A stretch of DNA of 64,000 nucleotides from Gnetum montanum (Eukaryota > Plantae > Gnetophyta): positions 1,178,001 through 1,242,000 of the forward strand of contig MNCI01000651.1 in the NCBI GenBank assembly GCA_015680685.1, written 5' to 3'. The position numbers and the translations under genes are program-made. Each line of letters begins with the position of its first letter. Within the stretch, counting starts at the first letter, position 1. The notes below the pieces were generated by a model. The model ran no database searches. It was given only the letters and a program-made list of their open reading frames with translations, and was not told the DNA's origin. Shown piece by piece: positions 3,847 to 53,954 of this stretch.

Positions 3847-6238
3847 ATTTCTAATCTTCCATTTGTGTAAGTACTACTCCCAATGCATAGTTGGATGCAT
3901 TTGTCATGATATGAAAAGATTTGGATCAATTAGGAGTACATAGAATTGGTGTTTCTATGAGCTTTTGTTTTAGGTATTGAATGTTTGTTCACATTCCTTG
4001 GTCTACTCAAATGCTACATCTTTCTTAGTAGGCTCAACCAGCGGCTTTGTGATTTTAAAGAAGTTTTCAATAAAACACTTGTAGTTACTAGTATGACCAA
4101 GGAATGATCTTACATCTTTGATAGTCTAAGGTTGCCTAGTCACTCCTCGAATAACCTTTATCTTTTTAGGGTCCACCTCAATTCCTTTAGCTAAAATTTT
4201 ATGTTCCAAGAAAATGCCTTATTGGACCATTAAGTAGCTCTTTTACCAATTGAGTCACAAGTTTGTTTCCATACATTGTTTCAGTACTTGTTTAGGATAG
4301 TCGAATGCTTACTCAAAATTAGCACCATAGGTAGAGAAGTCATCTATGAAAACTATAATTGTCTTGGCTTGGTCTTTTAGAGCAATCTGTATTTGATTAT
4401 ATTCATTGTACCTATGCAAAAAATTGTAATAGTTATGCCCTACAATTGTGTCTAACACTTGGTCCACAAATGGTAATGGAAAATGATCTTTAAATGTAGC
4501 CATGTTCAATAGTTGGAAGTATATAAAGACTCTCCATTGTCTCCCTTTCTTTGGTACAATAATAAGTGGACTTACCCACTTACTATTTGCCACTAGATAG
4601 ATAAATCCTACCTTGAGAAGCTTCTCAACTTAATTTTTAACAATTTGTTTCAATTTTGGACTCAACCTTTTTTGTGACTACCTTTGAGTTTAATAGTGGA
4701 GTCTGTGTAGATCTGATGTTGGCATATGAATAGATCTATTCCTATTAATCATCACCAGTATCAACTTTATTCTCAATTATCAATCCATCATTAGTTATCA
4801 TTGAAATCAAATTATCAGACAACCATCATATTAAATGCATTATCGAGACTTCAATAACTCATTTTCTCATACTCCATAATTTTAGACATTCTAGAATTAT
4901 CACATCTAGAAGATCAAAAGTCAAAGCTACATAAGTTAATCAAATTGCTTTCAAATCAATTCCATTTATCTATTAAGGATTCTTATTGGCGATATCATTA
5001 ATTAGTTTTCGTAAAATTTTTATCATCTATCATCATCAACTAAAGCAATTCAAAAAAGGCATTTTTAAGAGAGGTTACTTGCATTTCCATGATATTTCAT
5101 AGTGGAAGTGTAGATAATTGGAATGAAGTTTGTAACATCCTATCCCTAGATATCCCTCCTTGTTGGTATGTTATATGATTTGAACCCTTGATGTAATGTT
5201 TGACTAGCTTATGCTTTGTACTTTGTACTGCTATGCTTGGTGTAGTATACTTGTGATGTGTGATAGCATGGTTTATGGTTATAGTTGAGTTTTATGCCTT
5301 GTTATTTAATTAGAATGAAATACAAAAATTTATGAAATTTCATTTAACCACAATTTCACAGATACTTTACCCAATAAATCCCCCGATTCATTCAGTGTAG
5401 TAATAATAAACTTCAGTTCTAGTTTTAAATTCCTACGCTTTAGTCATTCAGATTAAGAAAATATCTTTAACAAAATATGAATACATTGATGCATAAATGC
5501 TATGTTTTTGTGGAAGTTTTAATGCTACATTCATTTAAATAGCAAATCATACATTGGTTTTAGATTTTCAATAGTATCTTCCTAAATTTTATCAAGGTAA
5601 TTTTTTTAGTGATAATTCAAAACTCCTATCATGTACATTTACACTATCAAATGGATTTAAAAGGATTTATGAACATAATAATATTTCAGTTTGGATTTTA
5701 CTTTTTCAATTGGAGGTTATATTAGAGCATTTCCAATTGAGCATCATCAATTGAGTGATTGGAAGGTCTCCCATTTAATTCCTTCACAAAATATTTAATA
5801 TATTCATAAATGATCATTCGAGGTTATTTAAGAAACAAAAGTGCTCTTGTGTGCATAAATCATGGGTAGCCTTGAGTCTTCCAACGTTGGCCTCTTTGAT
5901 CCCTAGTACCTTAACCTCTGCTTCAATATTAGGCCTGAGCAACATAGTTATATGATATAGCAGGTTCAAAGATGTTACTAAAGCATACTGTAACTCTCTA
6001 CAGCCTCAACATAGTTATGTTCTAAACCAAAAACAATGTTTTGGTCCATTTCATATTCTTGTGATGGGATTCATTACTGCTTGGCCCTTTGATACAACCC
6101 TTTCATTATGCTTTTGGATTGGTTCAAATTTCTCTCATATCTTCCAAGGTTACTATTATAAACTTGTGTACTTTCTTTTTTCATTGGATTGATGAAGGTT
6201 AGCAAATTTAATTTGAAATTCACAAATGTAAGTATTCG

Positions 6239-7779: not shown

Positions 7780-8177
7780 AACCGTGTAGACTTTGACCAG
7801 TCTTTCCTTAATGGCTTGGCCATTAAGCTAAGCACCTTTTCTATCACACGGAGTGTTATTAATTATGTGCGGTGAAAAAACTTTATGACTGAATATTAAC
7901 AGTGCAAAATAAAGTTAACAGAGAATTGATATTTATATATGCGTTCAGTCGCGCAGAGTTGCCCCTTTATGTATGCGTTCATACGCCGTGCCCCTGAAAC
8001 CCTGAAAACAGTTGCTTGGTTTCAATTCTAAATTCTGCTGCAGTTTCTTACACAAAACGGCTCAATCGGTGTTGCTGCGTTAGTTTCCCCTCAATTCTCC
8101 AGTCTCTGCAAATTATACACCTCTCTCTGTGATCTGATCTGATCTGATCTGTATCTGCCTTGACTGCAACAGGGCAA
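7780..8177 (+). promoter_or_regulatory. Putative TNL proximal promoter and 5' UTR
   Basis: CpG-retaining unique sequence, W-box TTGACC near 7793, TATA-like atttatatat at 7931-7940, and a (GATCT)n microsatellite at about 8130-8150. Confidence 0.4.
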
Positions 8178-8857
8178 ATGGCTGAGAACAGGGCAACTAA
8201 GCGGCTCAAGTCCTGTGATACAGAAGGGAGAGCAGCATCTAAGAGCAGCCGGACACAAGACGACAAGGAAGAGCAAAACATTCAATTCCCGGCAACAAAA
8301 TTGCAGGGTTTGCAGCAGCAGCAGGAGCAGCCTGCAGGGCCTTATTTTGATCCAGATTCAGGTGTTGGGTCATCTTCAACCTCAACTTATGAGGATGGCG
8401 CCAGCAGCAGCAGCAGCAACAAGTTCGATGTATTCATCAGTCACAGAGGCCCTGATACAAAGCAGACTTTGGCTTATCACATGTACGATCTGCTACAGGT
8501 TCATGGCATCCCTGTGTTCCTGGACAAAGAAGAACTTGAGAGGGGTGAAAGATTCGCACCAGCGATTGACGAAGCCATTGCATGTTCCAAAGTGCATGTG
8601 TGTATACTTTCCACTGGATATGCACGGTCTTTCTGGTGTCTGAAAGAATTGGAGATGATGGTGCGGAAATACGACATGGCTCAATCTAAGCTGATTCCTG
8701 TCTTCTATGATGTCCATCCCTCAGACGTTCGACATTTGAAAGGAGAATTCGGGCAGGGCTTTCAGAAACTAAAAACCAGGTACTCCAGTGAAGTTACCGA
8801 CACTTGGGAAAAGGCTTTGCGCACGATTGCAGACATTACCGGATACGAGGGTAAAGG
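8178..8857 (+). CDS. TNL exon 1: low-complexity N-terminal extension + TIR domain
   Basis: FDVFISHRGPDTK, VFLDKEEL, YARSFWCLKEL (catalytic Glu present), LIPVFYDVHPSDVR; donor GG|GTGAGT. Confidence 0.93.
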
Positions 8858-11800
8858 GTGAGTGATGTTATTAGCATCTGTGTTCGCTTATTTTTGGTTC
8901 ATTACGAAAGCAGGCTGATCTTCGGACATTCAAAGCAATAGGACGATATGTTAATATGATTCCAAATTTAGTTTTGAGCTTTCTTGGTAGTTTCTTCATT
9001 GATGCCTGGATTTAGAGTGTTTCTTATGTTTTTTTAAGCAGCAAACTTGGCACCATAAGGTAAAGTAAATTATTTCATGACTCGCAATAAATAAAAACAT
9101 ATATTGGCCTAAGGTTTTAGCTTTTATTTTGAAAGTTACTTTGATTGCCTTCTTATACAGGGAATGCTGTAAGAATATTGTCAACAAGATACTTGAGGAA
9201 CTTGATATTAAATTGCTTGATGTTCCCACCAACATGATTGGAAGAGAAGAGGCTTTACTCAGCACTAAGGATGCTATAATGAGATGCCGTCAGAATGGAT
9301 GTGGTGTGACATCAGTGGAAATAAGTGGTATTGGAGGCATAGGAAAAACCACCTTTGCAAAAGAACTTTATAATCAATTTTGTTCTCAGTATGAAAGGAG
9401 TTGTTTTATTGAAAATGTAAAGGGACTTGTAGAGAGCCATGGCATAAATGAAGTCCATAAACAGCTTATCATTCAGCTTTTCAAATATAATCAAAGTCAC
9501 TTAACAAAGCAAGGAACCCAACTTTTAAGAGAGAGATTGCATAATGCAGAAGTTTTAGTAGTGCTAGATAATATCGACAGTAAAATTCAACTGAGCATGG
9601 TGTTTATTGAAGATCATGTGTCTTTAAATCCTAGAAGTATCATTATTGTAACAAGTAGAGAAGAGGGAGTTTTGAAGCATGATTCTAAAATTGCTAAGTT
9701 TTGTAAGAATTTGATTTCACTGGATATGTTAAAATTAGACTTCTCTACATCAAAAAAATTATTTTGCCAGTATGCATTTGGAGGAATTGAGAATGTTGAG
9801 AACAAATTCAATGAGCTGATAGAAAAGATTGTTAAAAAATGTGATGGGATACCATTAGCATTGACTTTACTTGGCAGACAAGTTTATGGAACAGATATTA
9901 AATTCTGGAAAAATTTATGGAATACTATTGAAGACTCTTTGCATGGTGATCTGAAGAAAATACTACAACTTAGCTATGACAATCTTGATTTAGAGTTGCA
10001 AAAATGCTTGTTCTTAGATGTTGCGACTTTTTTCCTTGGGGAGAAGCAAGAGCTGCTAGTTCAGCTTCGGGGACGTGATAAAAATGGTGAATCAGAAGTC
10101 TTGTGTGCTCTTGAAATATTGAAAAGGAAGCTTTTAATTCAGACATTCTCTAATGGTTTTCTAAACATGCATGTCTTACTTGTGGACTTGGGAAGGAGTA
10201 TAGTCAAAGATGAAGATCCTTGCCCTGGCTACCGTAGTCGGGTGTGGCGTCCTTCCGATGTCAGATATGTGTTATCTGAAGAAATGGTATGATGTTAGAC
10301 TCTGCTTGTTCATATTTTTAACATGTTTTTTTATTAAAATATATAGTATTTTGTTGTTCCCTCCCTTGGCAATGCAATCCTTTTTAGAAGAGGTAGTTAC
10401 CTCAAAGCCCTGTGTCTGAATTTCAGGGGACGGAAAAGATAAAAGCACTTAGCTTAGTGTCAAATGGTTCAGCCGTGGTAGATGATGGATGCCAATGGTC
10501 TGGTGAAGCATTCAACAAACTATCATCTCTGGAATTTTTGATCCTTGATGGTCATTGTATTGAAGGTACAGTTGTGCATGGATTACTGTGTTTTTATTTT
10601 TTATTATTTTTTTAAACAAGGTAACATTTCGATTTGTCCAAGGCTTTTACATTGTTCTATATTTACAGAAGGTAGTGATTTTTCCAAGTTTTCAAAGAAA
10701 CTTTTATGGCTGAAATGGACTAATTTTCCATATGATCATATCCCTGAGACACTCTGCATAAAACGTGTGAGGATCCTAGAACTGTCTGGTGACAGGCTGA
10801 CCCGGTTATGGGAGTGTCGTCCGCAGGTCAGATTCAATAGCTTTTGTTTGAAAAGCAAAATGTTAAAGTCTTATTCCATCCTTGACCCAAATCTGAGTTT
10901 CCTGCTGCATTGAACAGGAGGCTCCGACAAAATTGAGACGACTTAGTTTATCAAATTGCAAGAACTTGCAAAGTCTACCAGAATTCACTGGACATTTTCT
11001 GCACTTATCTAGCATGATACTTTTTGACTGCACATCTTTGAAAACTATTTCAGAGAGCTTTGGCGAACTCCAAGGATTGATGCATCTTCAACTACAAAAT
11101 TGCAAGGCATTGGTACAGTTGCCGGAGGGCTTTGGCAAACTCCAAGGATTGAAGCGTCTTCAACTGCAAAATTGCAGGGCATTGGTACGGTTGCCGGAGG
11201 GCTTTGGAGACCTGCAAAGTTTATGCTCTTTGGAGATGAAGTCCTTAAAAAGGCTAAAATCATTGCCTGAGTCATTTGGGAAAATGTTGCAACTAGAAAA
11301 TCTGATAATTTGGGGGTGCTATTGTCTGGAACACCTGCCAGAGTCATTTGGTAAATTGTCACGATTAAAAATATTGTATATCATTTATGGCAAAGCCTTG
11401 CAACGCCTGCCAGACTCTTTTGGAAATCTGGCGCAATTAAAGAAGCTACATCTCAAGAGCTGCAAAGCCCTCCAAGGCCTCCCAGATTCTTTTGGAAACC
11501 TATCACAATTAAGAGAGCTATATCTCATGAACTGTAAAGCCTTGCAACGCATCCCAAATTCTTTTGGAAATCTAGCGCAATTAAAGGAGCTATATCTTGT
11601 GAACTGCAAAGCCCTGCAAGGCCTCCCTGATTCTTTTAGAAATCCGGCCCAGTTAGAGAAGCTACATTTCATGAACTGCAAAGCCTTGCAAGGCCTCCCA
11701 GATTCTTTTGGAAATGTAGCACAATTAAAGGAGCTATATCTCATGAACTGCAAAGCCTTGCCAGATTTTTTTGGAAATCTGGCACAATTAAAGAAGCTAT

Positions 11801-12075
11801 ATCTCAAGAGCTGCAAAGCCCTGCAAGGCCTCCCAGATTCTTTTGGAAATCTATCACAATTCAAGGAGCTATATCTCATGAACTGCAAAGCCCTGCAAGG
11901 CCTTCCAGATTTTTTTGGAAATTTAGCACAATTAAAAGAGCTATATCTCATGAATTGCAAAGCCCTGCAAGGCCTCCCAGATTCTTTTAGAAATCTGGAG
12001 TTAGAGTTGCTGGATCTTTTGCAGTGGAAAGCCCAGCAAGGCCTCCCAAATTCTTTTGGAAATCTGGCCAGTTAG
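8178..12075 (+). CDS. TIR-NB-ARC-LRR (TNL) disease-resistance protein, 5 exons, about 1086 aa, C-terminally truncated relative to the ancestral gene
   Basis: Exons 8178-8857, 9161-10286, 10427-10565, 10669-10826 and 10918-12075. All introns are GT..AG with consistent phases (2,0,1,0); the total of 3261 nt is open. TIR, P-loop, kinase-2, RNBS-B, GLPL, RNBS-D and MHx motifs and about 16 LRRs are present. Confidence 0.88.
9161..10286 (+). CDS. TNL exon 2: NB-ARC domain
   Basis: GIGGIGKTT, VLVVLDNID, SIIIVTSR, CDGIPLAL, LFLDVATFF, MHVLLVDLGRSIV; acceptor tacag at 9160, donor ATG|GTATGA. Confidence 0.93.
10427..10565 (+). CDS. TNL exon 3 (NB-LRR linker)
   Basis: tttcag|GTEKIKALSL...EAFNKLSSLEFLILDGHCIE|gtacag. 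Confidence 0.82.
10669..10826 (+). CDS. TNL exon 4 (linker / first LRR)
   Basis: DFSKFSKKLLWLKWTNFPYDHIP...LTRLWE; NAGNAG acceptor (cag aag); donor CAG|GTCAGA. Confidence 0.82.
10918..12075 (+). CDS. TNL exon 5: LRR domain
   Basis: Open frame of 24-aa repeats LPxSFGNLxxLxxLxLxxCxxLxx; ends at TAG just after a 1-bp deletion. Confidence 0.9.
   Translation, partial: EAPTKLRRLSLSNCKNLQSLPEFTGHFLHLSSMILFDCTSLKTISESFGELQGLMHLQLQNCKALVQLPEGFGKLQGLKRLQLQNCRALVRLPEGFGDLQSLCSLEMKSLKRLKSLPESFGKMLQLENLIIWGCYCLEHLPESFGKLSRLKILYIIYGKALQRLPDSFGNLAQLKKLHLKSCKALQGLPDSFGNLSQLRELYLMNCKALQRIPNSFGNLAQLKELYLVNCKALQGLPDSFRNPAQLEKLHFMNCKALQGLPDSFGNVAQLKELYLMNCKALPDFFGNLAQLKKLYLKSCKALQGLPDSFGNLSQFKELYLMNCKALQGLPDFFGNLAQLKELYLMNCKALQGLPDSFRNLELELLDLLQWKAQQGLPNSFGNLAS
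11385..12075 (+). repeat. Near-identical 72-bp LRR-coding tandem array
   Basis: About 9-10 units of tgcaaagcc(c/t)tgcaaggcctcccagattcttttggaaat, with a 351-bp higher-order period. Confidence 0.92.
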
Positions 12076-12115
12076 AGGAGCTGAAGCTGTCACCCTGCCA
12101 AATCTGCCAGTTATA

Positions 12116-12495
12116 TGTGAGGTGTTCGAAGTTCAATTTGAGCGTTGATTTTCTCCGGATATTTCTATGCCTTGTGTCTATGTTATAATTAGTCCCATCC
12201 CTATCTCACCAAAATAAATTAATCTTGGGTTCCGTGACATATATAAGGAGGTCAAAGGGAACATCCAAAGCACTACATTTTTCAAAGCATAATCTTGAGA
12301 AACATCTCTCTTCTATTGTAAATTCTTCTTCATCTTCAATTTTCTGAAGCTGTGCTGTTAACAGTCCAAGAATCTATTTTTTACTGGGTTTCTCACCTTG
12401 AAAGTTTTTCCTAGGTAACTCTTGTCTTTTTTTTTTATTTTCTACAATTTTTTTTAAAATTTAATGTAATATTGGTGCAAGCCACTGAAATAACA
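12116..12495 (+). mobile_element. 380-bp solo LTR (copia-like) inserted in former LRR coding sequence
   Basis: TGTGA...TAACA termini, perfect 5-bp TSD TTATA (12111-12115 and 12496-12500), internal TATATAAGG. Confidence 0.88.
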
Positions 12496-12500
12496 TTATA

Positions 12501-13722
12501 TGACCGGTGATCTGTAATTCCAGTGGTTGTATAGAAGGGTTAGCTGAATTATTTGGATACTTGACAAACTTGGTTCGCCTGGACATCTGGGATTGCAAAG
12601 GAATGGAAGGGTTACCTTAATCATTTGACCGTCTTCCACGCTTAAAATTTTTGAGTATCCATTGTTGCAATGATCTGAGAAGGCTACCTAAATCATTTGG
12701 GCATCTTTCACAGTTACAAACCTTGAGGATCAAAAATTGCAGTGCTCTACAAGGGTTACCTGAATCATTTGTACATCTTCCGAATTTACGGTACTTGAAA
12801 ATTGACAATTGCAGGGGTTTACACGGGTTATCTGAATCATCTGGACATCTGAATACATGAAGTTCCAGGATTGCAATGGTGAAGCTACTCAGCATCAATA
12901 CCTTCAATCGCTGGTGCATGAGGTTACCCAACGGACCACATTAATGAAGCAAAAGAGAGACAGTGTTGCCAATTTGCTTTCCGTCAATAGTGAAAATACA
13001 CGTCGTCAATTAAGTGATATTGAGGTAAATAGCCCATCATTTTATACAAAGGCACCAATCTGCCCTCCATCCACGGTATCAAATGGACTGCTTGTGGTTG
13101 GGAAGCTTATGGGCCATTCCAGAGCTGTTGGACGATATAGCCGGTCTTTCAATTCTGACAAAGCTGAATCTTGATTCATGCTTGAACCTAACAGTGCTTC
13201 CAACACACATAAACAATCTTTCACATTTGACAGAGTTGTCCCTTAGGAGGCTTTGGAATTTAGAGGAGTCGCCGGACACCATTGGCAACTTACAAAACCT
13301 ACGAAGTTTGTGATTGCATTGTTTTGAAAGGATTCCCATTTCAGTTAGGGAGTCTTTTTAGGCTGCAACTCCGAGCAGTTATAGATTGCTGGATGGTGGA
13401 AGTCCTGCACACACAAGCATTGGTCAGTCTTGAAGAGCTTCAAGTGATTGGCTGCGTAAACATGAGCAGCATTGCAGGGCTCTGGGGCCTTCCCAAGCTT
13501 AGAGCCATTACAATTGAAGGGTGTTTGAACCTCACAGACATCCTGGTCATAGCTTATATAAATGAATGTGCCAGCATGAGATATTTGACGAGTCTCAATA
13601 TCAGTGGGTGTTACCAGTTACGTCTTCTGCATCATGTCGTTGTGCACCTGCCTCAGTTCATGAATCTGCGGGTCACGCTTAATGACGATTTTCTCAGCGA
13701 ATCATTGGAGAACGATACTAAG
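12501..13722 (+). pseudogene. Decayed 3' LRR region of the TNL gene
   Basis: LRRs continue (FGYLTNLVRLDIWDC; LPKSFGHLSQLQTLRIKNC; LPTHINNLSHLTELSL; LVSLEELQVIGC) but with nonsense TAA at 12618 (LP*SF) and frame breaks near 12857 and 13311. Confidence 0.85.
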
Positions 13723-15779
13723 GTACGTATGTCTATATATTTTGATAAATAATATATGCAATTCTCATTTGCAAGTTGAGTTACGGATGTGCCTGTTTGT
13801 GATTACATAAATTAATGTGGACACAATTATACAGATTGACATGTTTATGTAAATAATAGGTGGAATTCTCGTTTACAAGTTAAGTGTGTGTACATTTATG
13901 ATTGCATAAATTATGTGGAGCACAGACATTGCCACCATGTCGTTTATGTGGAGAGCAGATGTTGCCAGGGGATGTAGTAAATGCGAAAACAAGCCCGGCA
14001 TTGCTTTTGGCAGTGGAAATTTGCTCAATACCATAGACGACTGCTCATTCTCTTTTCATAAACTTTTGCCGGATCATGACGGTTCCTCTTCATTCTTATT
14101 CAGCAACGGCTACTACATCAGTCACCACGACGACGTCATTAAAACTAAAACAACAACGATTTGTTTTGTCTCAACCATTTGCACTGTCGACTTCCCAATG
14201 CATATTCCCCCGCCTACAACCATATTAAATCTACAAGGGAAATCTACGAAATGTCAATCTACATGCTAGTGAAAGGTAATGTAGTTGATTCAAGAAAAAT
14301 CGTTCGATAAACCAAGAAGAAATTCCCCTATGCTAAATACTCTATTTCGGACAAGAGCCTTTAGAAACCTTACATAGAAAGAGAAGATTGGGTATATTAA
14401 ATAGTGAATGGTATGATCATGTCATTTAAAGTTATTGATGAACAAGAAAGGATTGTTTAACAATACCTTTAAAAATGATTGGGAGATTGATGCCTTGGGA
14501 GGATAGAATAACATAACTATTTTTTTTTAAAGACCTCAAAGGAAAAATCCCAAAGCCATGACCAACTTGTTTTAAATTTATATATGATTCTACAAATGGA
14601 ACCATATGATATTAGTGTTGATCAAAGTTCTATGTAAGAGTTCCACTATTCAATAGATCTACAAGGTCTATGTATTATCATAAAATTTTTCTTTAAGTTT
14701 CAATTTAAATTATATCATTAAACAAAAATATATTTCTAAGGGTGACAAATTGTTTCTTTGCTTAGAAGTTAGCTTTATTGATTACTTCAAATTAGATAAA
14801 TATGAAGGAGTTGACATTAGAAAGTAAAGTTAGTTATTTCATCATTAATTTTATTTAGTATCTTTTAGGTAAGTACATGGTAGAGAGGTATACTTATGTT
14901 GTTTGTAATTATGTAACTTGCATTTCATGCATTATTCAATTTTAAATATTTGAAGTAGATTTACATAACTATATTCTCTTGTATGAATGTGATTTTTTGT
15001 TGGGGCCTAGATGTTTTGTGAAACATTGCCCACTTTGTGGATCTTAATAAAATTAGAATTATTATGAATATAGATATAAATGTTGTCCATACATCCAAGT
15101 ATACAAATCATGAGCATTACATGTGATGTGATCATAATCTATGGAATAGATTAATGGAGCTTTTAGATAGTTAAACGTTGATCACAAATTGCTGTCTTTC
15201 CAACTATGCTTATCTAGATCATAGTTCATATAGTTAAGTATAATTGAGGCATATGATCATTAGTGTTATGTGGTCATGATAAAATAATATTTAAAATATA
15301 AAGATTTAATTTAATGAATTTAGGAACAATGAATAAACTATAAGCTACCCTAAGTGATGAGTATCCATTCCCAATTTGCCATACACATCTTGAATTTACA
15401 CAATCATTGTTGGATTACCAAGTGCTAATTATTGGATTTGGTAAGTGACAACACTACTAATATTACCAAACAATTACATATTTATGCTCAAAATTGGTTG
15501 TACTCAATTTACAAAGTTAACATACATTTTGGAATTAAAATATTAACAAAGTGCATGAAAGTACATAATAGTGAAAGCAAATTGCTAATAGGAAAACATT
15601 AAGCTTAGTTAAAATGTTACAATAAAGATAAATTAATTTCAATCCTATTGTTGTCATGAATTGTATCCATGTACAATATCACTTGAACAAGATTATATTC
15701 AATTAATTAAAGTTCATGTTGTGGGCACTCATTGATTATGCTAACTTCTATGAAATAAGAGTTCTGTTACTATGATGAT

Positions 15780-16589
15780 AGATGAGTGGCAAGGTACTCG
15801 TACACTCAACCATACGAATACTAGCGTTTCATGCACAATTTGGTTGAACTCCAAGGACTAAGTGCTTATGCATCTTAATGGAACACTTAAGGTTAATCAA
15901 TCGTTGTCTTCTCAAACTTACTTGTATTGTCACGGTTGTATGGTTAAGTAAGCTTGAGGTATATGATTTTTATATCTTTTATCTTTTTAATGTCTTATGC
16001 TAATAGGGGAAGGTGAAGAGAACTGAGTGACTAACTTTCATTAACTATTCACCAACTACGTTCTAATTGTTCCTAACACCAGTATTCGTTCCCACTTGCT
16101 GCACACATCCTGAACTAGTGCAACGCTACTAGGATTACCAAACGCTAATCGTTAGGGTTACCAAGTGCTATGCACATGCTCGAAGCAGTCGTACTGAGTG
16201 TACTTAATTAGGAGAGTCAATGGTTGAGAGAGATTAATTAACTAGGAAAGCATTTAAACATTCAACAATAATTAATTACTATTTGGCTTAGTCTACATGC
16301 TGCAAGGTTTATCATAAAGTTTGTCTTTATTGCTGTACACAAATGTGTGCTTATGTACAATTTGCTCGAATAAAGATCCATTCACTTTAAGACTCCTACT
16401 GCGAGCACATGGAAATTATTCTAACTTTGGAATGGTAAAACTGCAAGAGTTTAGCTAAGGGTCTAAGTCTAAGTGTCTAGAACAGGGAAAGCTATCTCTT
16501 ATTTATAGAAATTGCGACAGGTAGCGATACCATGTATGTGATGTCACAAGGCGGACGCGATATCGCGGATGCGATATCATGGCTCATCA
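15780..16589 (-). mobile_element. Solo LTR, Athila-like GATATC clan
   Basis: Homologous to the LTRs at 18965, 28025 and 55677. Termini (A)GATGAG...CTCATCA; TSD ATGAT at 15775-15779 and 16590-16594. Confidence 0.9.
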
Positions 16590-18964: not shown

Positions 18965-19760
18965 TGATGACTAGTGAGGTACCCCTATGCTCAACTATAT
19001 GAATACGAGCATTTCACACACGATTTGGTCGAATTCCAAGGACTAAGTGCCTATGCGCCTGTGTGGAACAATAACGGGTTGATTAATCGCTGTCTTCCCA
19101 AACTTACTTGTATGTCATGGTTGTATGGTTAAGCAAGCTTGAGGCATATGATTTTTATGGCTCTTATGTGTTTTATATCCTGTGCTAATAAGGAGGGGAG
19201 AGAGAAATAACTAAGTAACTAATCTAATTTAACTATTCATTAACCAACTTCTAAGTACTCCTAACACCAGTATCTGTTCCCACTTATCGTATACATCCTA
19301 AACTAGTGCAATGCTACTGGGTTACCAAGTGCTACATGCATGTTCAAAGTGGTCGTACTGAGTGTATTTAACTAAGAGAGTTGTAGGGTGAGAGAAATCA
19401 TTAATTAACTATGAAAGCATTAAATAATAATTAATACTAATTAATCTATTCTGTATGCTATAAGGTTTATCATAAAGTTCGTTTTTATTGCCATCCACAA
19501 AGTGTGCTTAGGTACACAATGCTCGAATAAAGATGCATTCACTCTATGACTCCTACTGCGGGCACGTAGAAATAATTCTAACTATGGAGGGAGAGAATGG
19601 CAAGAGTTTGGCTAAGGGACTAACTTCTAATTGTGGAAACTAAGGGTGTCGCCTCTTATTTATAGACAAGGAGATGGGCTGCGACATCGGGTATCCGACA
19701 TTGCATGGTAGATCCGATATCACGGACACAATATCGTGGACATGATATCACGATTCATCA
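18965..19760 (-). repeat. 3' LTR of element C
   Basis: Direct repeat of 28025-28860; PPT (gtcatggggata on minus) at 19761-19772. Confidence 0.93.
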
Positions 19761-21652
19761 TATCCCCATGACTAAATGAAACTTGTCCTCAAGTTCCTTA
19801 CAAAATATTGGGAAGGTATGGAATTATTAACTGAATGAACATTGATGGTGGAACAGGTTGACTGACTCAACATGCCCAGTGAACAAATCAACAATACAAT
19901 ACATGACATCATTAGTGTTCATGACCACAAAAGTGAACACTGTACATAAATGACATCCAACCTTATTTGGCAGCTGGAAAAGAAGAAGGAGAGAAAGAAA
20001 AGAATAAGACATGCAGCTGCGGATGCCAATATTGCGCCTTTCGTTGTTCATCCATAGCCACACCACCAATCTTGCTCCTTTCGCAAATGTTCTAGTTCCA
20101 ATCCATCCTGAGTGTTTTCTCTAGGCCCAGTCCATTGTTGTATGATTGTCATTTGCACACACAACATAGTCACAAATGAACGAGGATAGATAAATCATAA
20201 TGTAGTTGATACCTTGCCTTGATGTGAAGTGCATTGTCTAAGTTGTGGTTATGGCAGCTACTGGTTTTGAATTTTTAACACTGGTGACTACCTAAGGTAT
20301 AGGGGTTAGGAAAAATTGAAAAATTTGTGCCCGGGCCCCCATGATGAAGAGCAAACCTCTGGTAGCGATAGGATGGAAAAAGATAAGGAATAAGAAAGGT
20401 GGAGAAAAAGTAACAACGGCAATGCCAATAAAATGGATGTCATAGACGAGGATGAAACAAAAAGTTTTTGATTGTAGGAAATGTTTAAGGGAAAGAAATT
20501 AACAAATGCACTAAAAAGGAATGCCAATGGGTCCTCCCCAAAGCAGGCTCATGCCTTTAGTACCCTGATAGACCCACAACCCAAAGAGTCCATAGGCTCT
20601 AGGAATGTTAATTGGAAGCAAGAGTTAAAAACTTACCCATAATAAATTACTAAGGAAGAACAATGCATCAACCAAGATACAAACTAATGATAAAACTGGC
20701 AATGAGGTAAGAAATGGAAAAGAAAGATGGAGAGCAGAGAATGGAATGAAAACCCAAGAACAAGGTTGTGTAAAGTTTCTTGTGTGTTTCATGGTTAATG
20801 TGATAGAGAACTCATTCCAAATCTAGGCTCAACAATCTACATTTAGTGACCTCACATCAACACATTTGACCAACCCATCCCCTTGAAGCAACAAGAATGC
20901 CTCTACAAAAAGTCACCACCACTCCAAGGAAAGCGAGATGGAGAACCAGGAAGTGAGAAGGGGCCTTAATTAGAGGGAACCTTCAGGCATGGGTAACATG
21001 TCTTTCCAGTGCCATAAACAGTGCATGTAGCCCAAAATCATTATTGTGTCTAAGGGGTGTGCTTTGAATTCTTACTATTTTTTTTTGTGTTTTTCACGTG
21101 AGAACCACACCATGCAAAGACTTATTTTTATGTACTCAACTTCCGATAATTTGGTGAATGATCAGAATGGCAGAAAACCCAAGCAAAAAGCATCCAAGCA
21201 CTCAAGAGAATAGTTAGTAAAAATGCATATAATCCCCTTGAAGTCACACCCTTTTCATCCTTTGAGTCCTTTCTCGATCTGAGAAATACCCAGTTACCAA
21301 TTCATTAATAGTTTTATTAGAGGAAGGGACTATACAATTCCAAGCCAAGGAAAACCATAGGATTGTATGGGTGCATGAATGACATGGACTCATTACCTGT
21401 TAATCAAAAGAACCATACCCTAATTATCAACATCATACTTCAAAGGTAAAATCCAAACATTACCAATCAATATGATCTTATTCATACCACCATCATGAAC
21501 ACTTATTGGGTGATGAACAAAATGAAGTAATCACACAAAGAAATCGTAAAAATATGAATGATGATGTAAAACAAAAATAAGAAGATTAAAGAAATATGTA
21601 AAACAAAAATGTGTAAAACAAAAATTTGGAAAGAACTGAGGGTCTTTAATGA

Positions 21653-24600
21653 TTAGCAAGGGTGGCCATCTCCCCCATCACTGAATGGGAAAGAGGAGAT
21701 CCAAAATAACGAGCAAGCTTGCCCACTTACAGAGGTAGCATATGTTCTGGTTGACCTAAACTCATGGAAAGGTTTTGTTTGTTGCACATTGACTAATAGT
21801 CTCTTATCTGGGCTCTCAAGTTTATCTATGGTCATGGCCCCTAAAGGAAAAGTTGCATAGATAATGTAAGGTCCTTCCCACAATGTTTGAAATTTGGTAT
21901 GTTGTAACACATGTGTGGGATTCTAGTAGAGAACCTTATCTCTTGGCTGGTAGTTAACTGTCCTAATTTTTAGGTTATGACATTGTTTATTAAATGCCTT
22001 GTGCAACTCATTAGATGATAAGACAACTAGTTAGTTCTCATCTAGCAAGTTAAGAGTCATCAACCTTTGTTTTTATGCTAGATCAAGGTCAAGGTTGAGG
22101 TCACATGCCATAGCTAGCATATGGAGCTTAGTTTGGATAGGAAGCGTTGGAAGTTTTCCATACACTAACTCATAAGGAGAGTAGCCTATAGGGAGTTTCC
22201 ATGTGGAGCGGTATGCCCAGAGAGCATCATTCAGTTTAGTGCTCCAGTCTCACCTATATTTGCTAATGGTTCTGGCTAGTATCTTAGTAATCTCTCTATT
22301 GGTGACCTCGGCTTGATCGTTTGCTTGGGGGTGGTATGGTGTAGTCAATTTGTGCTCAACCCCTAAGTGTTGCATTAACTTCTGAAAAGTTGCACCTGTA
22401 AAGTGTGTGCCATTATCTGAGATAAGTGCATGTGGCACACCAAACCTGTTGACGACTTGTTGTTGGACAAATCGTGCAGCTGTAGATGAGGTGCAATCTT
22501 TAACGGCTGCTACTTCAGCCCATTTTGTTAAGTAGTCTACGACAACTATGATGTATGCTTTTCCATTGGACATTAGTGTAATGGGCCCCATGAAATCGAT
22601 TCCCCAAATGTCGAAGGGTTCTAATGGTTGAATCCATTGTTGTGGCCCCTCCATTCTAGCAGTCATTCCCCCATCACGTTGACAATGCTCACAAGATTGG
22701 ATGAATTGATGGGTGTCCTGGAATAAGGTAGGCTAATAGTACCCTATAAGAAAGATCTTAATGGCTATTCATCTCCCAGCATAATGACCCCCACAAGGGC
22801 CCTCATGAGCATCTTGAAGAACTCTTGGTTGATCTCTATCGAGAACACATCATCGAACCAAGCCATTGGGACATACTTTGTAAAGTTGTCCATTGATTTC
22901 CATAAAGTACTTAGCTCTATAAAGAAACTGTTGTTTCTTCTTAAGGTCTAACTCTTGTGGTGTTTTTTGGATAAGGAGATAGGTAAGAATGCTACTATAC
23001 CAATTTGTCTTCATGGGTGATTGATTATTCACTATACCAACAAAGAGGAACTCATTAGGGAAGTGATCGAAAATAGGATACTCGTCCTCTTTGCTATCCC
23101 AGTGCAACTAAGATAAATGATTGGAAACTACGTTCTTGGTGCCTTTACGATCAATCATTGTTAGATTGAACTCTTGTAGGATTACTAGCCATTGTATAAT
23201 ACGGGGGCTTACCATTGGCTTATTCATGAGGAACCAGATGACACTATGATATGTGTGTATGAATACTTTATATCCCAATACATAGTGCCTAAATTTTTCT
23301 AGTGAAAACACTATAGTCATTAATTCCTTTTCTATAGTAGTGTAGTTAAGTTGTGCACCAGCTATACTTCTATTTGCACAGTGGATGTAATAAGGGCATT
23401 TTTGAGCATCTAATTGTGTAAGTACGGCTCCTAAGGCATAGTTAGATGCATTAGTCATGACATGGAATGGCATGGACTAATCAAGAGCTTGTAGAATGGG
23501 TGTTTCTACCAGCTTCTACTTCAAAGTTTAGAAAGCTAGTTTGCATTCCTTGATCCACTTGAAGGGTACATCTTTTTTCATTAGCTCTACCAATGATTTG
23601 GCAATCTTTGAAAAGTTCTCTATGAATCTCCTATAGTAGCTAGTGTGTCCAAGGAATGATCAAATGTCCTTGATAGTTTCCGGTTGATAGGTAATTCCTT
23701 GGATGACCTTGATTTTCTTAGGGTCTACCTCTATCCCTGCATGTAAAATTTTATGCCCAAGTACTATGCCTTCTTGGACCATTAAATGGATTTTCTACTA
23801 GTTGAGCCTTAGATTAGTCTCTACACATCTTTTTAGCACTTGCTCTAACCAGTCCAAGGCTTGATCACAACTTGCTCTGTAAGTGGAGCAGTCATCCATA
23901 AAGACTTCCACACCATTTCCTATCTACTCCTGGAATATGCTTAGAACTAAGTGTTGAAACATGGTAGGGGTATTGCATAAGCCAAACGACATTTGTTTGT
24001 ATGCAAACATTCTCCAAGGACTGGTGAATGTGGTTTTGGCTTGGTCTTCTAAGGCTATTTGTATTTGGTTGTATCCACTATAGCCATCTAGAAAATTATA
24101 ATAGTGATGCCCTACAATTGTGTCCAAGACTTGGTCAACAAATGGCAACGGAAAGTGATCCTTAAATGTTTCCATGTTTAGTAGCCTAAAATCTATACAC
24201 ATCCTCAATTTGTCTTCCTTTTTAGGCACAATTACCAAGGGGATAACCCATTTACTATTAGCAATGGGGTATATGAACCTAGCCTTTAGAAGTTGTTTGA
24301 TTTCTTCTTTTACTACTTGTTTCAACTTTGGGTTCAATCGCCTCTGTGGTTGTTTTCGAGGCTTCATGGAGGAGTCAATGTAAATCCTATGCTGGCATAT
24401 CCTAGGATCTATTCCAATTAATTTTGGATATGACCAGGCGAAGAATTTTGACCACTTGTTTATTACCTTGAGCAGACTTTCTTTTTGTTGTGGAGCAAGT
24501 CTTGCGTTGATGATTACTAATTTTCCATTCTTAAGGAATGTGTATTCCATACCGGTGGGTAATGGTTTTAGCTCCAGGGGATCTTGTTTAAATTTCTTGG

Positions 24601-27600
24601 GAATTTTCAACTTCCCCCAGTTGATGTTTTCTAAGTTAGGATTGGGAAGCTGGTGGTGGACTTGCTCTAATGCATCAATGCTATTTATATAAGCGCAAGT
24701 CAAACCCTTAGTTAGTTCCATGCATATAAGTGAGCTGCTTTCTTGATTAGCTATCAACCACTAGGTGTCTTTTTGTCGTGTGGCTGCTGCATACAGGCAC
24801 CTTTGTATGTTGATTGTTTGTGCACACTGATTGCATGCAGGTAATGCTAAACTTTGCACAACCCATGATCTCTGCAGGCAATTGCACCCTAAGTCACTGT
24901 ATGCGATGCATGGAACCTTCTTCTTCTCGATCTTTCTAAAAGTGTTTTCCTTAGATATTTCTAAGGGAAGATCACAGATACCTAGGCGCACATCGATAGT
25001 GCTTAGCCATGCCCTTCCCATTATGATTGGGAAGTCCCCCTTACTGTTATTCATTTGGATCACCAAGAAGTTAGTTGGATACGATCACCCACAAACAGTG
25101 GTGACAATGTCCTCCACTAATCCCAAGGGGACAATGATGGACTGGTTGACTAACTCTAAATGAACATTGCTCTTTTTCAATGGGGGTAGGTTTGAGGCCT
25201 TATACATTTCTTGGGATATTAGGTTGACACCGGAACTTGAATCTAAAATAGCTTTGCATGGCTCATTTCTAGCAATTTGTAGATAGATTAGGGGACTCCT
25301 AGGATTAGATAATTTCTTGAGAAGGTGGCCAGCTTTGATCCAATCAGTAGTGGCATGTGTTAACATGATCATATGCATTGAATGTGGTGTTAAGTTTGAA
25401 GGGGGCTCTGAAGCTTTAGTTGATACGGAGGCGTCCAAAGACTTAGCCACTTGAGGTTGCAAAGGCTTAGTTGGATTGTTGGTTTTGAAGAAAGATCTTT
25501 TCTTTGTACGATTCTCAAAACCAACAGTAGGTTGAGGATTAACAACCCTTGTGGTATTGCGTTGTTGTGGCTGAGCATGGAGTTCACCTTGCATTGCTGG
25601 AGCAGGTGGTAATGGAGCTATTGTTGGGAGAGATGCGGCTGGATTGGAAGGATGGTACACTTGTGGAATGTCACCCCTAGGAGAGGAAGTCCTATAGTAC
25701 TCGTAGGCCTGGTAGTGATGTTGGGGAGTAACATGACCAACAGAATCATGTGGAGAGACTGGATGTTGCACGTAGTATCCATATGGGTTAGGTTGTTAGT
25801 AAGGATATTGTTTCTTTGGCGATGGCATTCCCCATGATTGTCGGTGCTGCGACTGTTGATGTTGCTCCATTGGTTGTGGTGGAGTTCCACTTGGATAATA
25901 TGTTAAAGGTTGGTGGAACTGCCTTGGGTTACCTTGGGGATAAGGTAATCGTCGGGATGTTTTTCTTTTGTTTAAACGTGGATTAAGTGCATACACCCCA
26001 GACTCCTGTAAATGTGAGATTACAGGGCAACATCCCTTAGGATGGTTGTATTGATAGATCTCACATCCACTATCATCATCCATATTTGAGACCACAACCT
26101 CTTCAATAATAGCAACTTTACCCTTACCCTTGTTACGTGCATTTTCTGCTTCTCTCTTTTTCCTTTTGTTATAGTCACTACCTCACTCCCTAGACTCCTC
26201 TACTACTTTGAGCATAGTTTGAAACCTACTATCCAGGGAGTCCCACATTTGGTCTACCTTTGCTGATACTTCAGATGCTAACTTTTGAATAGGCAAGGTT
26301 TTCCTATTCACCATCTCTTCGAGTGGTGACTCTTCCTCATCCTCACAAAATCTTACTCCCTTCTTTTGGAGAGAAGGATCTCAGCTGTATTCTTTTGCGC
26401 TCTCTCTTTTTCGTAGCTCCCCTTCTTCTTTAGCTACTTGCTCCAGAAGTCTGTGAATTTGATGGGACCTAAGCTTAGATAACCTTCCTTGGGCATAAGT
26501 CCTAAGGGTCCTTCTTGTTTCATGCCTAAGCCCATCTATGAGATGATGTAGTTGATCCCGCTACGAATAACCATGGCCAGGACAACAATGTAAGAGTGCA
26601 TAATAGTGGCCCATGGTAGCATCCAAGGGTTCATGATTTCCTTGTTTCCATCCTTGGATTTTCTTTCACAGGTTAGATACCTACGAGTACATTCGGTACT
26701 TATCGTTATAACATCGTACTCCACCTACGAATGGATTTTGGTTCTAAGGACCGATACTAGCTTTCAGTTTCTTTTATTAGTTTTCGTGGAAATAACTTAA
26801 GCTTTTGCCACTCATTTTCTATGTTTTGCAAGGCACACGCATCATGAAATTCTTGTAAGTGATTTTGAGGATCAACATTATATCCCCCTTCAAATTGTGG
26901 GATGTTATTCATGTCTAGCCTCTTGATCCTACTATCTTTTTGGTGCCTTGTTGGAACTCTCAATGCCTCAATTATATCTAGCATGCTTTGTGTGGCAAGT
27001 AGGGGTTCATCATGATCATCTCATTCATAGCATCTATGGTGTCTATGCGGTTCCCTACTCTCCCTTCTTCTATGGCATGATTTCTTAGAGTGCCCTCATC
27101 CTTTATTTTGGTTGTCTCATCTGTGACTTCCACTTTGTTTGCCCTTATCCTCATGATCTGTTTCTCTATGGCTATGTCCGGACATACAAGGAGAGGATGA
27201 AGGAGACAATGGGGGTGAAGAAGAAGGATAATTGCCATCATGATGTTGTCTACTACCTTTTCTTTGGTGGTCTCTCTCTCGATCGTGATTGCGATCAGAA
27301 TGTCCACCTTTGCCATGTGCCCTTGTTCCTTTTTTAGACTTTTTGTGTCTGTTGGTATCAGCACCTGGGTTGTGAATAGTAGAATGAAGGTTTTGATACA
27401 CAACCCCTTGGCCAAAGTCAAGGGGAGGAACATCATTATGTGGGTGACTACCTAAGGAAGGTTCATCATCCTCAATTTTACTTAAAAACCAGGGGGCATC
27501 CTTAGACCATTTTCCCTTTAAGGACTTATGGTGTCTCTCCTGTTGCATGTCACTTTGACATTGTGCTTCGGTGGGATGATAGTCTCTCAAATCATAGTCC

Positions 27601-28024: not shown

Positions 28025-28860
28025 TGATGAGCGACAAAGTACCCCTATGCTCAACCATATGAATACGAGCGTTTCACACATGATCCAATCAAATTCTAAG
28101 GACTAAGTGCCTATGCACCTGTGTGGAACAATAACGGGGTGATTAATCGTTGTCTTCCCAAACTTACTTGTATGTCATGGTAGTATGGTTAAGCAAGCTT
28201 GAGGCATATGATTTTTATGGCTCTTATGTGTTTTATATCTTGTGCTAATAAGGAGGGGAGAGAGAAATAACTAAGTAACTAATCTAATTTAACTATTCAT
28301 TAACCAAGTTCTAAGTACTCCTAACATCAGTATTCGTTCCCACTTTCCATACACATCCTGAACCAGTGCAACGTTGCTAGGGTTACCAAATGCTAATCGT
28401 TACTGGGTTACCAAGTGCTACACGCATGCTCGAAGTGGTCGTACTAAGTGTATTTAACTAAGAGAGTTGTAGGGTAAGAGAAATAATTAATTAACTATGA
28501 AAGAATTAAATAATAATTAACACTAATTAATCTATTCTGTATGTTGCAATGTTTATCATAAAGTTCATCTTTATTACCGTACACAAAGTGTGCTCAGGTA
28601 CACAATGCTCGAATAAAGGTCTATTCACTCTATGACTCCTACTGTGGGCACACAGAAATAATTCTAACTCTGGAGGGAGAGAATGATAAGAGTTTGGCTA
28701 AGGGACTAACTTCTAACTGTGGAAACCAAGGGCACTGCCTCTTATTTATAGACAAGGAGACAAGCCGCGATATCAGGTATTTGACATTGCATGGTAGATC
28801 CAATCTTGTAGATGCGATATAGTGGACATGATAGTGCGTACGTGATATCACGGTTCATCA
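28025..28860 (-). repeat. 5' LTR of element C
   Basis: TG...CA termini; U3 GATATC cluster at about 28765-28855; TATA (ctataaat on minus) near 28750. Confidence 0.93.
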
Positions 28861-39049: not shown

Positions 39050-41640
39050 GAAGATCAAACAGGTAGTGAGTGGTCCATTGTGCAAGGTAGAGTCTATGAA
39101 GTAAGAAAAGTCATGAAATGATTTACTCTATTTAATATTAACAAGGATGAGCCTCTATGGGTCCATTGGATGATAAATTTGCATGGCACCCAATTGATAT
39201 GTGACATGGACAATATAAGATCCTTCCCATAAGGTTGAACTTTGGCTTTTACGAGACATGGTTTGGATTATAGTAAAAGACTTTATCTCCAAGCTTGATT
39301 AATACTTGTCTAATTTTGGTACCATATCTATGTTTGAAATACTTTTTATGGATTTCGTTACTCATTTGAGCTACTAATTGATTTTCATCTAAGAGATTAA
39401 GATTCATTAATCATTCTTTTTGAGCTAAGTCTAACTCTAGGGTAAGTATGTAAGCAATTGTAAGGGTATTAATTTTGCTTGAATTAATAGAGTAGGTAAT
39501 TTTCCATAAACTAATTCATATGGTGAATACGCTGTAGGAAGTTTCCAAGTTGATCAATATGCCCATATAACATCATTAGGTTTAGTATTCTAATCCTTCC
39601 TATATTTACTAATGATTCTAGTTAATATTCCTGTAATTTCGTTGTTAGTTACTTTAGCTTGACCATTCACCTGGGGATGATAAGATGTAGTTAATTTATG
39701 ATTGACCCTAACTTGTTGCATTAACTTCTTGAATGTAGCTCTAGTGGAATGAGTTGTCTAATATTAACATTTGTGGTACTCCAAATTTGTTCACCACATG
39801 TTGTTGAAGAAATTTTGTAACTGTTGTGGCTGTGCAATCTTTAACTGTAGATACTTTTGCTGACTTAGTATAGTAATCAATAGTCACAATAATATAAGAA
39901 TTCTCATTTGATATTGATAGGATGCACCCCATAAAGTTAATTCTCCAAATATTAAAGGGTTCCAATGGTTGTATCCACTCTTGTGGTTCTTTGCTTTTAG
40001 CTCTTAGTCCTCCATCCCTTTGGCATCTCTCATAAAATTGTACAAATTGATGTGGATCCCTGAATATGGTAGGCCAAAAGCAATCTGCCATCATCAATTT
40101 TACTACGGTCCATTATCCTACATAGTGACCACCACATGATTCTTCATGTACATCTTGTAGAACTCTCTGTTGATTCTCTTTTAAAACACATTATTGTATT
40201 AATCCATTTGCACATATCTTATAAAGATTTCTTTTAATTTCCATATACTATTTTACTTTGTAAAGAAACTATTCTTTTTGCTTTCTATCCCATTCAATAG
40301 GAAGTTATTTTGTTGTTAGATATGTCATGTAATCAATAATCCATGATTTGATTGCCAAATCTATAATCATTGCTATCTTTGTAAATAAATTTTCATTAGA
40401 AAATTGGTCTAATAATGATTTTTCATTGTTTTGTAGTTCTCATCTTAATCTTGACAAGTGATCAACTACAACATTTTTAGTTTCTTTCCTGTCGATCATT
40501 GTGATGTCAAATTCTTATAAAATGACAAGTCATCTTATTACTCTTGGACTTGCCACTGGTTTTTTCATTAGAAATTTGATAGCATTGTGGTCAATATGAA
40601 CATAGATAGGATATCTAAGCACATAATGTCTAAAATTTTCAAGTGCATATACCACAACCATAAGCTTCTTTTATGTAGTAGTATAGGTAAGTTGTGCTCC
40701 AGTAATGCTTTAACTAGTACAATGTATGTAATATGGTTAATTTTTATCATCAATTTGAGTCAATAGTTCTTCTAATGCATAATTTGAAGCATCTATCAAA
40801 ATGTGAAAAGGATTAGACTAATTTGAAGCTTGAAGGATTGGTGTCTCAGTTAATTTCTATTTTAGGCTCTGAAATGCTTTCTCACATTATTCTGACCACT
40901 TACATGGTGCATCTTTCTTTATTAGTTCAACAAGAAATTTTGCAATCTTTGAAAAGTTTTCAATGAATCTTCCATAGTACCATATATGGACAAGGAATTA
41001 TTTGATGCCCTTACTTATTTGTAGCCTTTGAGTGATGTTCTAAATGACTCTAATCTTATCTAGATCTACCTTGATTAGTTTATAAGATATTTTATGTGCT
41101 AGGACTATGCCATCTTGGATCATTAAGTGGCTTTTCTACCAATTCAGCTACAAATTTGTTTCAACATATCTTTTCAAAACTTACTCTAATTGCCTAAAAG
41201 TTTGTTTGAAATTAAGCCTGTATGTAGAAAAGTTGTCTATAAACACTTCAATTGCATTACTAGTATGTTTTTAAAAGTTGATGAGGGTAAGTCTTTAGAA
41301 GGTGATGGGAGCATTATATAGGCCAAATGGTATTTGCCTATATGCAAACATTTCCTATAGACACATGAACATCATTTTCTCTTAATCCTTTGATGTAATA
41401 TGGATTTAATTGTGTTCATTATATCCATCTAGGAAGCTATAGTATTGATGTCCTTCAATGGTATCTAGGACTTTAACAAATGACAAAGGGAAATGGCCTT
41501 TGAATATTACCATGTTCAATAATTAGAAATCTATAGAGACCCTTCACTTGTCATCCTTTTTTAGGATAATGACTAATGGGCTAACCCATAGGATGGATGA
41601 ACCTTGCTTTTAATAGCTTTTCTAATTCTTGTTTAATAAT
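39050..41640 (-). pseudogene. pol (RT, RNase H, integrase) of element D
   Basis: FWPTIFRD...CQRDGG...PLEPFNIW; degenerate RH and RT motifs. Confidence 0.85.
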
Positions 41641-53760: not shown

Positions 53761-53954
53761 TGTTGGGGTGTTCAGTTTTATCTCTAAATCCCACCATTTT
53801 GTAATTTTTCCTTCTCTATACACTCAAGCACTTGGTGCATTAGTAAAATTGGTGTTATGTCATGTGTGTTGTGTCATGTGTGTTGTAATAAGAAGTCCAT
53901 ACTTCCAAATTGTATAGGAACTCAAGGATGAGTTTTTACTCAGTCATGGGGGTA

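What the first reader, a model, noticed from the sequence alone, without database searches (positions are those of the whole stretch)
10167..10175. Natural MHD-to-MHV substitution in an otherwise intact TNL
Seen: ATG CAT GTC (MHV), one base from GAC, with an intact P-loop GKTT and TIR catalytic Glu (WCLKEL). Established: the engineered D-to-V change in MHD is the classic autoactivating mutation of plant NLRs (for example Rx and flax L6). Inference: this is a naturally primed or autoactive executor held in check by expression, miRNA or a partner. Caveat: the third MHD position varies among TNLs, and the gene may be an incipient pseudogene.
Basis: partly seen in the sequence, partly recalled or inferred. 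Interest (0 to 1): 0.72.

Follow-up and report, generated by a model that had tools for sequence, protein, structure and literature searches.

The report
Truncated gymnosperm TNL with natural MHV
A spliced immune-receptor gene of a likely gymnosperm carries valine where 40 of 42 related contigs carry aspartate, a change that switches such receptors on in the lab, but the gene has lost its tail end, so it is likely either a pre-armed receptor like Arabidopsis TNT1 or a copy that no longer signals.

Summary
The MHV codon (10167-10175) is real. Zero-difference contigs cover it in 4 of 6 runs laid, one of them spliced. It is derived: 40 of 42 contigs covering base 10174 read Asp. TIR Glu157, the P-loop, RNBS-B and GLPL are intact. 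The gene is not otherwise intact: a frameshift near 12067 stops it at 1086-1087 aa after 16 LRRs, and the downstream LRR exons hold at least three more lesions (not checked in reads). The upstream 3.26 kb has no lesion (P about 0.013-0.02) and its LRR repeats show pN/pS 0.29, so it has likely been under selection. Closest relatives are Ginkgo TNLs. A natural autoactive MHV is already described (Arabidopsis TNT1), and 0.226% of NLRs carry Val here. Best reading (0.42): a primed, recognition-truncated TNL restrained by its remaining LRRs and by mRNA dose. Rivals: a non-signalling or decaying copy (0.33), or a regulator in which Val does nothing (0.22). No linked partner was found. Activity is untested. 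This is a new member of a known kind.

The parts
8178..8857 (+). Exon 1: Q/S-rich N-terminal extension and TIR domain (about 8421-8855), catalytic Glu157 at 8646-8648
   Evidence: Pfam TIR E=1.3e-37; aligns with L6, RPP1 and Roq1 TIRs; intron 1 joint seen in 4 of 4 runs
9161..10286 (+). Exon 2: NB-ARC. P-loop 9327-9353, Walker B VLVVLDNID 9552-9578, RNBS-B TSR 9651-9659, GIPL 9846-9857
   Evidence: Pfam NB-ARC and WHD_ROQ1; Roq1 E=5e-36; model mean pLDDT 90.6
10167..10175 (+). MHV motif; derived T at 10174 (GAC to GTC, Asp to Val565)
   Evidence: identical contigs in X1, X2, X5, X6; 40 of 42 contigs have A at 10174
10427..10565 (+). Exon 3 (NB-ARC to LRR linker)
   Evidence: GT..AG joints; tblastn to Ginkgo TNLs
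10669..10826 (+). Exon 4; two in-frame acceptors (10669 or 10672) give 1087 or 1086 aa
   Evidence: joints 10563-10667 and 10561-10668; translation of the 10669 form; the 10672 form read from the sequence
10918..12075 (+). Exon 5: 16 LRRs of about 24 aa, including a 72-bp array of 9.6 copies (11390-12065); ends at TAG 12073-12075 after a 1-nt frameshift near 12067
12213..12218 (+). AATAAA 138 nt after the stop; candidate proximal poly(A) signal, untested
12517..12878 (+). Broken LRR exon remnant (about 5 repeats): TAA at 12618, frameshift near 12852
13085..13722 (+). Broken C-terminal LRR remnant collinear with Ginkgo TNL LRR ends: TGA 13311 and/or frameshift 13311-13425; donor GT at 13723
13861..14270 (+). 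Possible remnant of a terminal post-LRR exon (weak evidence)
   Evidence: exon-like GC 0.41 between AT-rich flanks; no Pfam hit; no convincing alignment to Ginkgo C-termini

Best explanation
This is a spliced TIR-NB-ARC-LRR gene that is cut short after 16 LRRs and carries a derived Asp-to-Val change in its MHD motif; the change is predicted to weaken the ADP-locked resting state, so the protein likely acts as a pre-armed signaller whose output would be set by dose rather than by binding a pathogen effector. Shown: the codon, its derived state, splicing, intact TIR and NB motifs, and the broken 3' exons in the assembly. Inferred from L6, M and TNT1: Val favours the ATP-bound oligomer and so TIR NADase activity. 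Inferred: restraint comes from the remaining LRRs and from mRNA level (nonsense-mediated decay of a read-through transcript, or choice of the poly(A) signal at 12213), or from an unlinked paralogue. Inferred from the literature: in a gymnosperm the signal would pass through EDS1-PAD4 and RPW8-type helpers, because SAG101 and NRG1 are reported absent.
For: The codon is real and spliced and derived against an Asp background of 40 of 42 contigs. Identical Val contigs occur in runs with four organism labels from four studies. Other pieces of X5 and X6 differ from the window by 1-3%, which suggests that Val is older than those splits if the pieces are orthologous. There is no lesion in 3.26 kb upstream against at least 3 further lesions in about 1.0-1.2 kb downstream (P=0.013-0.02 under uniform decay). 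LRR repeats give pN/pS 0.29 (16 nonsynonymous and 16 synonymous changes over 6 units). NB-ARC departures at conserved columns (7 of 46) lie within the range of the five Ginkgo rows (4-8), and TIR departures (4 of 38) are ordinary. Precedent: TNT1 MHV is needed for cell death, and its TIR-NB without LRR still kills; L6, M and M1 MHV are autoactive; LRR-truncated DM10 alleles cause autoimmunity in crosses; NMD limits TNLs and is eased on infection.
Against: There are no activity data. The gene lost roughly a dozen LRRs and its post-LRR region, and deleting or mutating the C-JID abolishes death by RPS4 and N; executors keep this region better than sensors do. The distal repeats show damage (L to P, G to R, C to W, 9-bp and 3-bp deletions), and pN/pS may predate the truncation. 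MHV is not sufficient by itself: full-length TNT1 without its membrane anchor does not kill. TNT1 death needs SAG101/NRG1, which are reported absent in gymnosperms. No linked NLR lies in 64 kb. The TIR has Tyr at the usual Ser/Asp site before the His (2 of 197; that this site is part of the AE interface is recalled). The base rate of 0.226% makes one such gene per genome unremarkable.
Confidence: 0.42

Rival explanations
1. Tolerated change in a copy that no longer signals. The C-terminal truncation, or decay of its mRNA, disabled the receptor, which let an otherwise costly Asp-to-Val change persist; the gene is eroding from the 3' end towards a pseudogene.
For: Frameshift and at least 3 further lesions; damaged last repeats; C-JID loss kills RPS4, N and P2 function; long terminal branch of 1.08; NMD is proposed to mask harmful new NLR variants.
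Against: Lesions are confined to the 3' part (P=0.013-0.02); catalytic and nucleotide motifs are intact; spliced contigs exist; the same Val sequence occurs under four organism labels. The clustering test excludes death at the first lesion but not a recent death.
Confidence: 0.33
2. Functional sensor, modulator or TIR-signalling copy in which the third MHD residue matters little, as in RPP1 (MHT) and many TNLs with MHN, MHQ or MHA; Val does not make it autoactive.
For: 85 of 301 homologous motifs lack Asp; Ginkgo sister rows have MHS and MHE; RPP1 has MHT; sensors have weaker MHD conservation and shorter LRRs.
Against: The close paralogue set conserves Asp (40 of 42); the TIR catalytic site is intact, unlike typical sensors; no head-to-head partner was found.
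Confidence: 0.22
3. Sequencing or assembly error at base 10174.
For: The window holds an apparent assembly artefact at 54 kb. X16 and X17 show no Val contig.
Against: Zero-difference contigs span the codon in 4 runs from 4 studies; at most one of these could be the window's own source.
Confidence: 0.01

Closest known systems
Arabidopsis TNT1 (AT3G04220; bioRxiv 10.1101/2025.04.25.650432)
   Same: TNL with a wild-type MHV, intact P-loop and TIR Glu; proposed there as a restrained death switch.
   Different: TNT1 is full length, ER-anchored by an N-terminal TM domain, linked to TN13, and signals through SAG101/NRG1. This gene is a likely gymnosperm TNL, truncated, with a polar Q/S-rich N-terminus and no linked NLR. 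It was not placed on a tree with TNT1; an independent origin is inferred from its Asp paralogues.
Engineered MHV alleles of flax L6, M and M1 (and Rx, recalled)
   Same: Same Asp-to-Val change at the same aligned position.
   Different: Those are lab mutants of intact receptors with shown autoactivity; here the change is natural, in a truncated gene, and untested.
Ginkgo biloba TNL clade (Gb_26309, Gb_07607, Gb_11386, Gb_36932)
   Same: Nearest named relatives (37-40% NB-ARC identity; 4-row group, SH-aLRT 98, quick tree); shared Walker B 'DN' and collinear exon-sized blocks.
   Different: They carry MHS, MHE, MHE and MHD. Gb_26309 and Gb_36932 run 260-330 aa past the last LRR match.
Arabidopsis DM10 LRR-truncated risk alleles
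   Same: LRR-truncated TNL that can still drive autoimmunity (one passage).
   Different: No MHV is mentioned in the passage seen; activity there appears only in specific crosses.
Cotton D11 TNLs P0034 and P0098
   Same: Natural MHV (MHVLLQEMGR) in TNLs of two Gossypium species.
   Different: Angiosperm, about 1200 aa, in a separate clade with MHA/MHN relatives; no functional data seen.

Membership tests
Plant TNL | TIR, NB-ARC and LRR in order, with TNL exon layout | tested here: met
Plant TNL | NB-ARC motifs (P-loop, Walker B, RNBS-B, GLPL) and fold | tested here: met
   Walker B reads DN, as in 25 of 323 aligned motifs and in the six best-scoring rows
Intact full-length TNL | Uninterrupted LRR and C-terminal region | tested here: not met
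   frameshift near 12067 and at least 3 lesions downstream; assembly only
Natural MHV autoactive TNL (TNT1 type) | Wild-type Val at the third MHD position | tested here: met
Natural MHV autoactive TNL (TNT1 type) | TIR catalytic Glu and P-loop Lys present | tested here: met
Natural MHV autoactive TNL (TNT1 type) | Val-dependent cell death without effector | not testable with these tools
   needs transient expression
Paired TNL executor | Head-to-head linked sensor NLR | tested here: not met
   none of 1713 tblastn HSPs from 273 NLR proteins fell outside 8100-14400; 8 kb upstream and 50 kb downstream seen
Paired TNL executor | Well-conserved MHD and C-terminal (C-JID) region | tested here: not met
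   MHV and broken 3' exons; criterion; whether the ancestor had a C-JID was not shown
Paired TNL sensor | Compromised TIR or an integrated domain | tested here: inconclusive
   Glu157 intact and no integrated domain; unusual Tyr before the His in helix A (2 of 197)
Pseudogene | Lesions and neutral change throughout the gene | tested here: not met
   lesions only 3', pN/pS 0.29, spliced contigs; recent loss of function is not excluded
miR482/2118 target | Complementary site over a GMGG[V/I]GK P-loop | tested here: inconclusive
   core is GIGGIGK, not the preferred type; no miRNA sequence of this lineage was compared

The most novel reading that the evidence does not exclude
A gymnosperm has turned a TNL into a tripwire. 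It dropped the effector-binding end, gained the on-switch mutation, and is gated only at the RNA level (nonsense-mediated decay versus proximal polyadenylation), so it fires whenever infection relaxes RNA surveillance. It would signal without SAG101/NRG1 and be kept beside a near-identical MHD copy across several species.
Probability: 0.1. Interest if true: 0.72.

Novelty: new member of a known kind. Interest (0 to 1): 0.38.

Why it matters
If active, it would be an independent natural origin of the textbook on-switch mutation, in a lineage reported to lack SAG101/NRG1. It would give an effector-free handle on gymnosperm TNL signalling, for which a 2026 preprint asks for MHD-mutant full receptors. 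A near-identical Asp copy exists in X5 (2 differences in 64 bp), so nature may supply the control. If inactive, it is one of roughly 128 MHV NLRs implied by the RefSeq survey (0.226% of 56,686) and shows that MHV alone does not mark a primed receptor.

Tried and rejected
No whole genome is held, so paralogues could not be counted as genes. No run is on record as RNA (no RNA holder listed); transcription rests on spliced contigs, and contig depth was not used as expression. Protein searches found no relative above 40% identity, so no dN/dS on orthologues was possible. The variant tables are unphased and cut (one search shows 40 of 427 rows), so they were not used for a selection test. The AlphaFold model is in the closed state (rmsd 3.7 to resting NRC2, about 15 to Roq1/RPP1 resistosomes); this was not counted as evidence on activity, because the alignment is mostly MHD and no ligand is modelled. 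No complex was folded, since a TIR dimer would pass by likeness to solved structures. Two stops and a frameshift at 12880-13050 were dropped from the lesion count because that stretch may be an intron. A C-JID remnant at 13861-14270 was not supported. Walker B 'DN' was rejected as a second priming lesion because it is a clade trait. Earlier scan notes held nothing. The paper search returned 0. Searches listed no paper whose title or abstract start concerns a natural MHV in a gymnosperm; that library lacks most subscription journals. The tree is the quick version; the careful search did not finish (52 rows: the window, the 45 best of 257 and 6 added).

Full report
Observation. Bases 10167-10175 read ATG CAT GTC, in frame with the NB-ARC exon. 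In the spliced model this is M563-H564-V565. It aligns with MHD of Roq1 and MHT of RPP1. The P-loop and the TIR catalytic Glu157 are present; Glu is found in 191 of 197 aligned TIRs and lines up with L6, RPP1 and Roq1.

The base is real. Contigs with no other letters span the codon in X1, X2 and X5 and in X5 and X6. That is 4 of the 6 runs laid, carrying four organism labels and four study codes; one could be the window's own source. The X2 contig joins 10285 to 10426 across a GT..AG intron, so the Val form exists as spliced sequence. X16 and X17, each about 75% read, show no Val contig, which does not prove absence.

The base is derived. In one search, 40 contigs covering 10174 read A (10, 7, 14 and 9 in X5, X6, X16 and X17). 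The remaining depth matches one identical contig each in X5 and X6, giving 40 of 42. No change is listed at 10173 and only C to T at 10175 (3% threshold), so these read Asp. Contigs are not genes, and one gene can be counted in several runs. X5 also holds a contig with 2 differences in 64 bp; the depth arithmetic puts it among the A-reading ones, so a near-identical Asp allele or paralogue exists. Elsewhere X5 and X6 have pieces 1-3% different from the window (5 in 323, 3 in 284, 3 in 245, 5 in 171). If these are orthologous, Val predates those splits; unphased contigs cannot prove it.

Gene structure. Exons are 8178-8857, 9161-10286, 10427-10565, 10669 or 10672-10826, and 10918-12075. All four introns have joints, some possibly from paralogues at 85% likeness; the X2 records across introns 1 and 2 have no other letters. 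The frame is open for 1086-1087 aa and ends after 16 LRRs in exon 5, where a 1-nt frameshift near 12067 gives TAG at 12073. LRR sequence continues at 12517-12878 and 13085-13722, collinear with the LRR ends of Ginkgo TNLs. It holds TAA at 12618, a frameshift near 12852, and a stop and/or frameshift from 13311. The title's 'otherwise intact' is therefore wrong for this assembly. Both read-laying runs went to the 5' part, so the 3' lesions are unchecked in reads. Even if the first frameshift were an error, the substitution stop at 12618 would still truncate the protein.

Is the remaining gene alive? Three further lesions in about 1.0-1.2 kb against none in 3.26 kb give P=0.013-0.02 under uniform decay. 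Six full 72-bp LRR units differ from their majority unit by 16 synonymous and 16 nonsynonymous changes, pN/pS 0.29, though this may predate the truncation. The NB-ARC departs from 7 of 46 conserved columns: above the median of 3 (37 of 262 rows have as many) but within the 4-8 of five Ginkgo rows. The TIR departs from 4 of 38. The NB-ARC folds with mean pLDDT 90.6. Against this, the last repeats carry L to P, G to R, C to W and two small in-frame deletions, and the terminal branch is long (1.08). A long-dead gene is unlikely; recent loss of function is not excluded.

Lineage and neighbours. The five best-scoring NB-ARC rows by BLASTP are Ginkgo biloba TNLs at 36-38% identity, and the window groups with three of them (SH-aLRT 98, quick tree). 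A gymnosperm source is inferred; the species was not determined. No other NLR-like sequence lies in the window; identified neighbours are retrotransposon fragments.

How unusual is MHV? Among 301 aligned motifs from 273 proteins, 216 have Asp and 2 have MHV, both cotton TNLs; this set is enriched in multi-domain and cotton entries. The TNT1 preprint (10.1101/2025.04.25.650432; passages, section 15; supplements not seen) counts Val in 0.226% of 56,686 NLRs. It shows that the natural MHV of TNT1 is needed for cell death in N. benthamiana, with P-loop, TIR Glu and EDS1/SAG101/NRG1 dependence. The same paper shows both sides: TIR-NB without LRR kills, while full-length MHV protein without its membrane anchor does not.

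Mechanism. MHD holds the winged-helix domain on ADP, and changes in it lead to effector-independent activation (PMC8813719, passages); L6, M and M1 MHV are strongly autoactive (10.1101/2023.08.02.551391, legend passage). I infer that Val565 biases this protein to the on state. The distal LRR and C-terminal region bind effectors in Roq1 and RPP1, so the truncated protein would have lost much of that surface, and output would depend on dose. The premature stop lies upstream of old introns, which would invite NMD; NMD limits TNLs and eases on infection (PMC6032283, passages). An AATAAA at 12213 could bypass it, as proximal polyadenylation yields LRR-truncated NLRs in Arabidopsis (PMC8116057, passages). 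Both routes are untested. SAG101 and NRG1 are reported absent in gymnosperms, while conifers and Ginkgo have many RPW8-type helpers (PMC6691002, passages) and Ginkgo TIRs can kill in Nicotiana (10.64898/2026.05.20.726525, passages). miR482/2118 prefers GMGG[V/I]G P-loops (PMC5026261, passages); this gene has GIGGIGK, which weakens but does not exclude miRNA control.

Rivals. C-JID loss abolishes RPS4 and N cell death, and executors conserve MHD and C-JID better than sensors do (PMC13725568, passages). A non-signalling copy tolerating Val (0.33) or a regulator indifferent to it (0.22) is therefore almost as likely as priming (0.42). The Rx example is recalled, not checked.

Verdict. The gene carries a real, derived MHV in spliced sequence, and is a truncated but probably still selected gymnosperm-type TNL. 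It may work like TNT1; it is not an intact TNL and not a linked-pair executor. It is a new member of a known kind; interest 0.38.

Noticed in passing
window 53619-54520: A 495-bp block between single Ns (54025, 54521) is an inverted copy of the sequence just before it; likely a scaffolding artefact, not a real hairpin.
   Followed up: partly
window 10669-10672: Tandem (NAGNAG) acceptors of intron 3; both in-frame joints are seen in contigs.
   Followed up: partly
window 9552-9578: Walker B reads LDNID; the Asn is shared with the Ginkgo sister clade and 25 of 323 aligned motifs.
   Followed up: yes
window 8466-8483: TIR helix A reads LAYH where Ser or Asp is usual (Tyr in 2 of 197); a paralogue loose end in X2 also reads LAY.
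   Followed up: partly
window 8190-8447 and 9160-9683: X1 holds a second version about 4% different in these stretches but a single identical contig over 9817-10287 at about the summed depth; possibly two copies that share the Val segment.
   Followed up: no
window 11390-12065: Recent 72-bp LRR expansion, 9.6 copies, with a 9-bp deletion in one unit.
   Followed up: yes
window 21597-26996, 39182-41589, 43530-48963: Decayed LTR-retrotransposon copies (RT, RNase H and integrase hits) about 65-70% alike, in both orientations; a further fragment at 3847-4749.
   Followed up: partly
window 15781-16582, 18965-19747, 28025-28833, 55677-56490: Four copies of an unidentified repeat of about 800 bp, 68-87% alike.
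   Followed up: no
proteins P0034, P0098: Two cotton TNLs also carry a natural MHV.
   Followed up: partly
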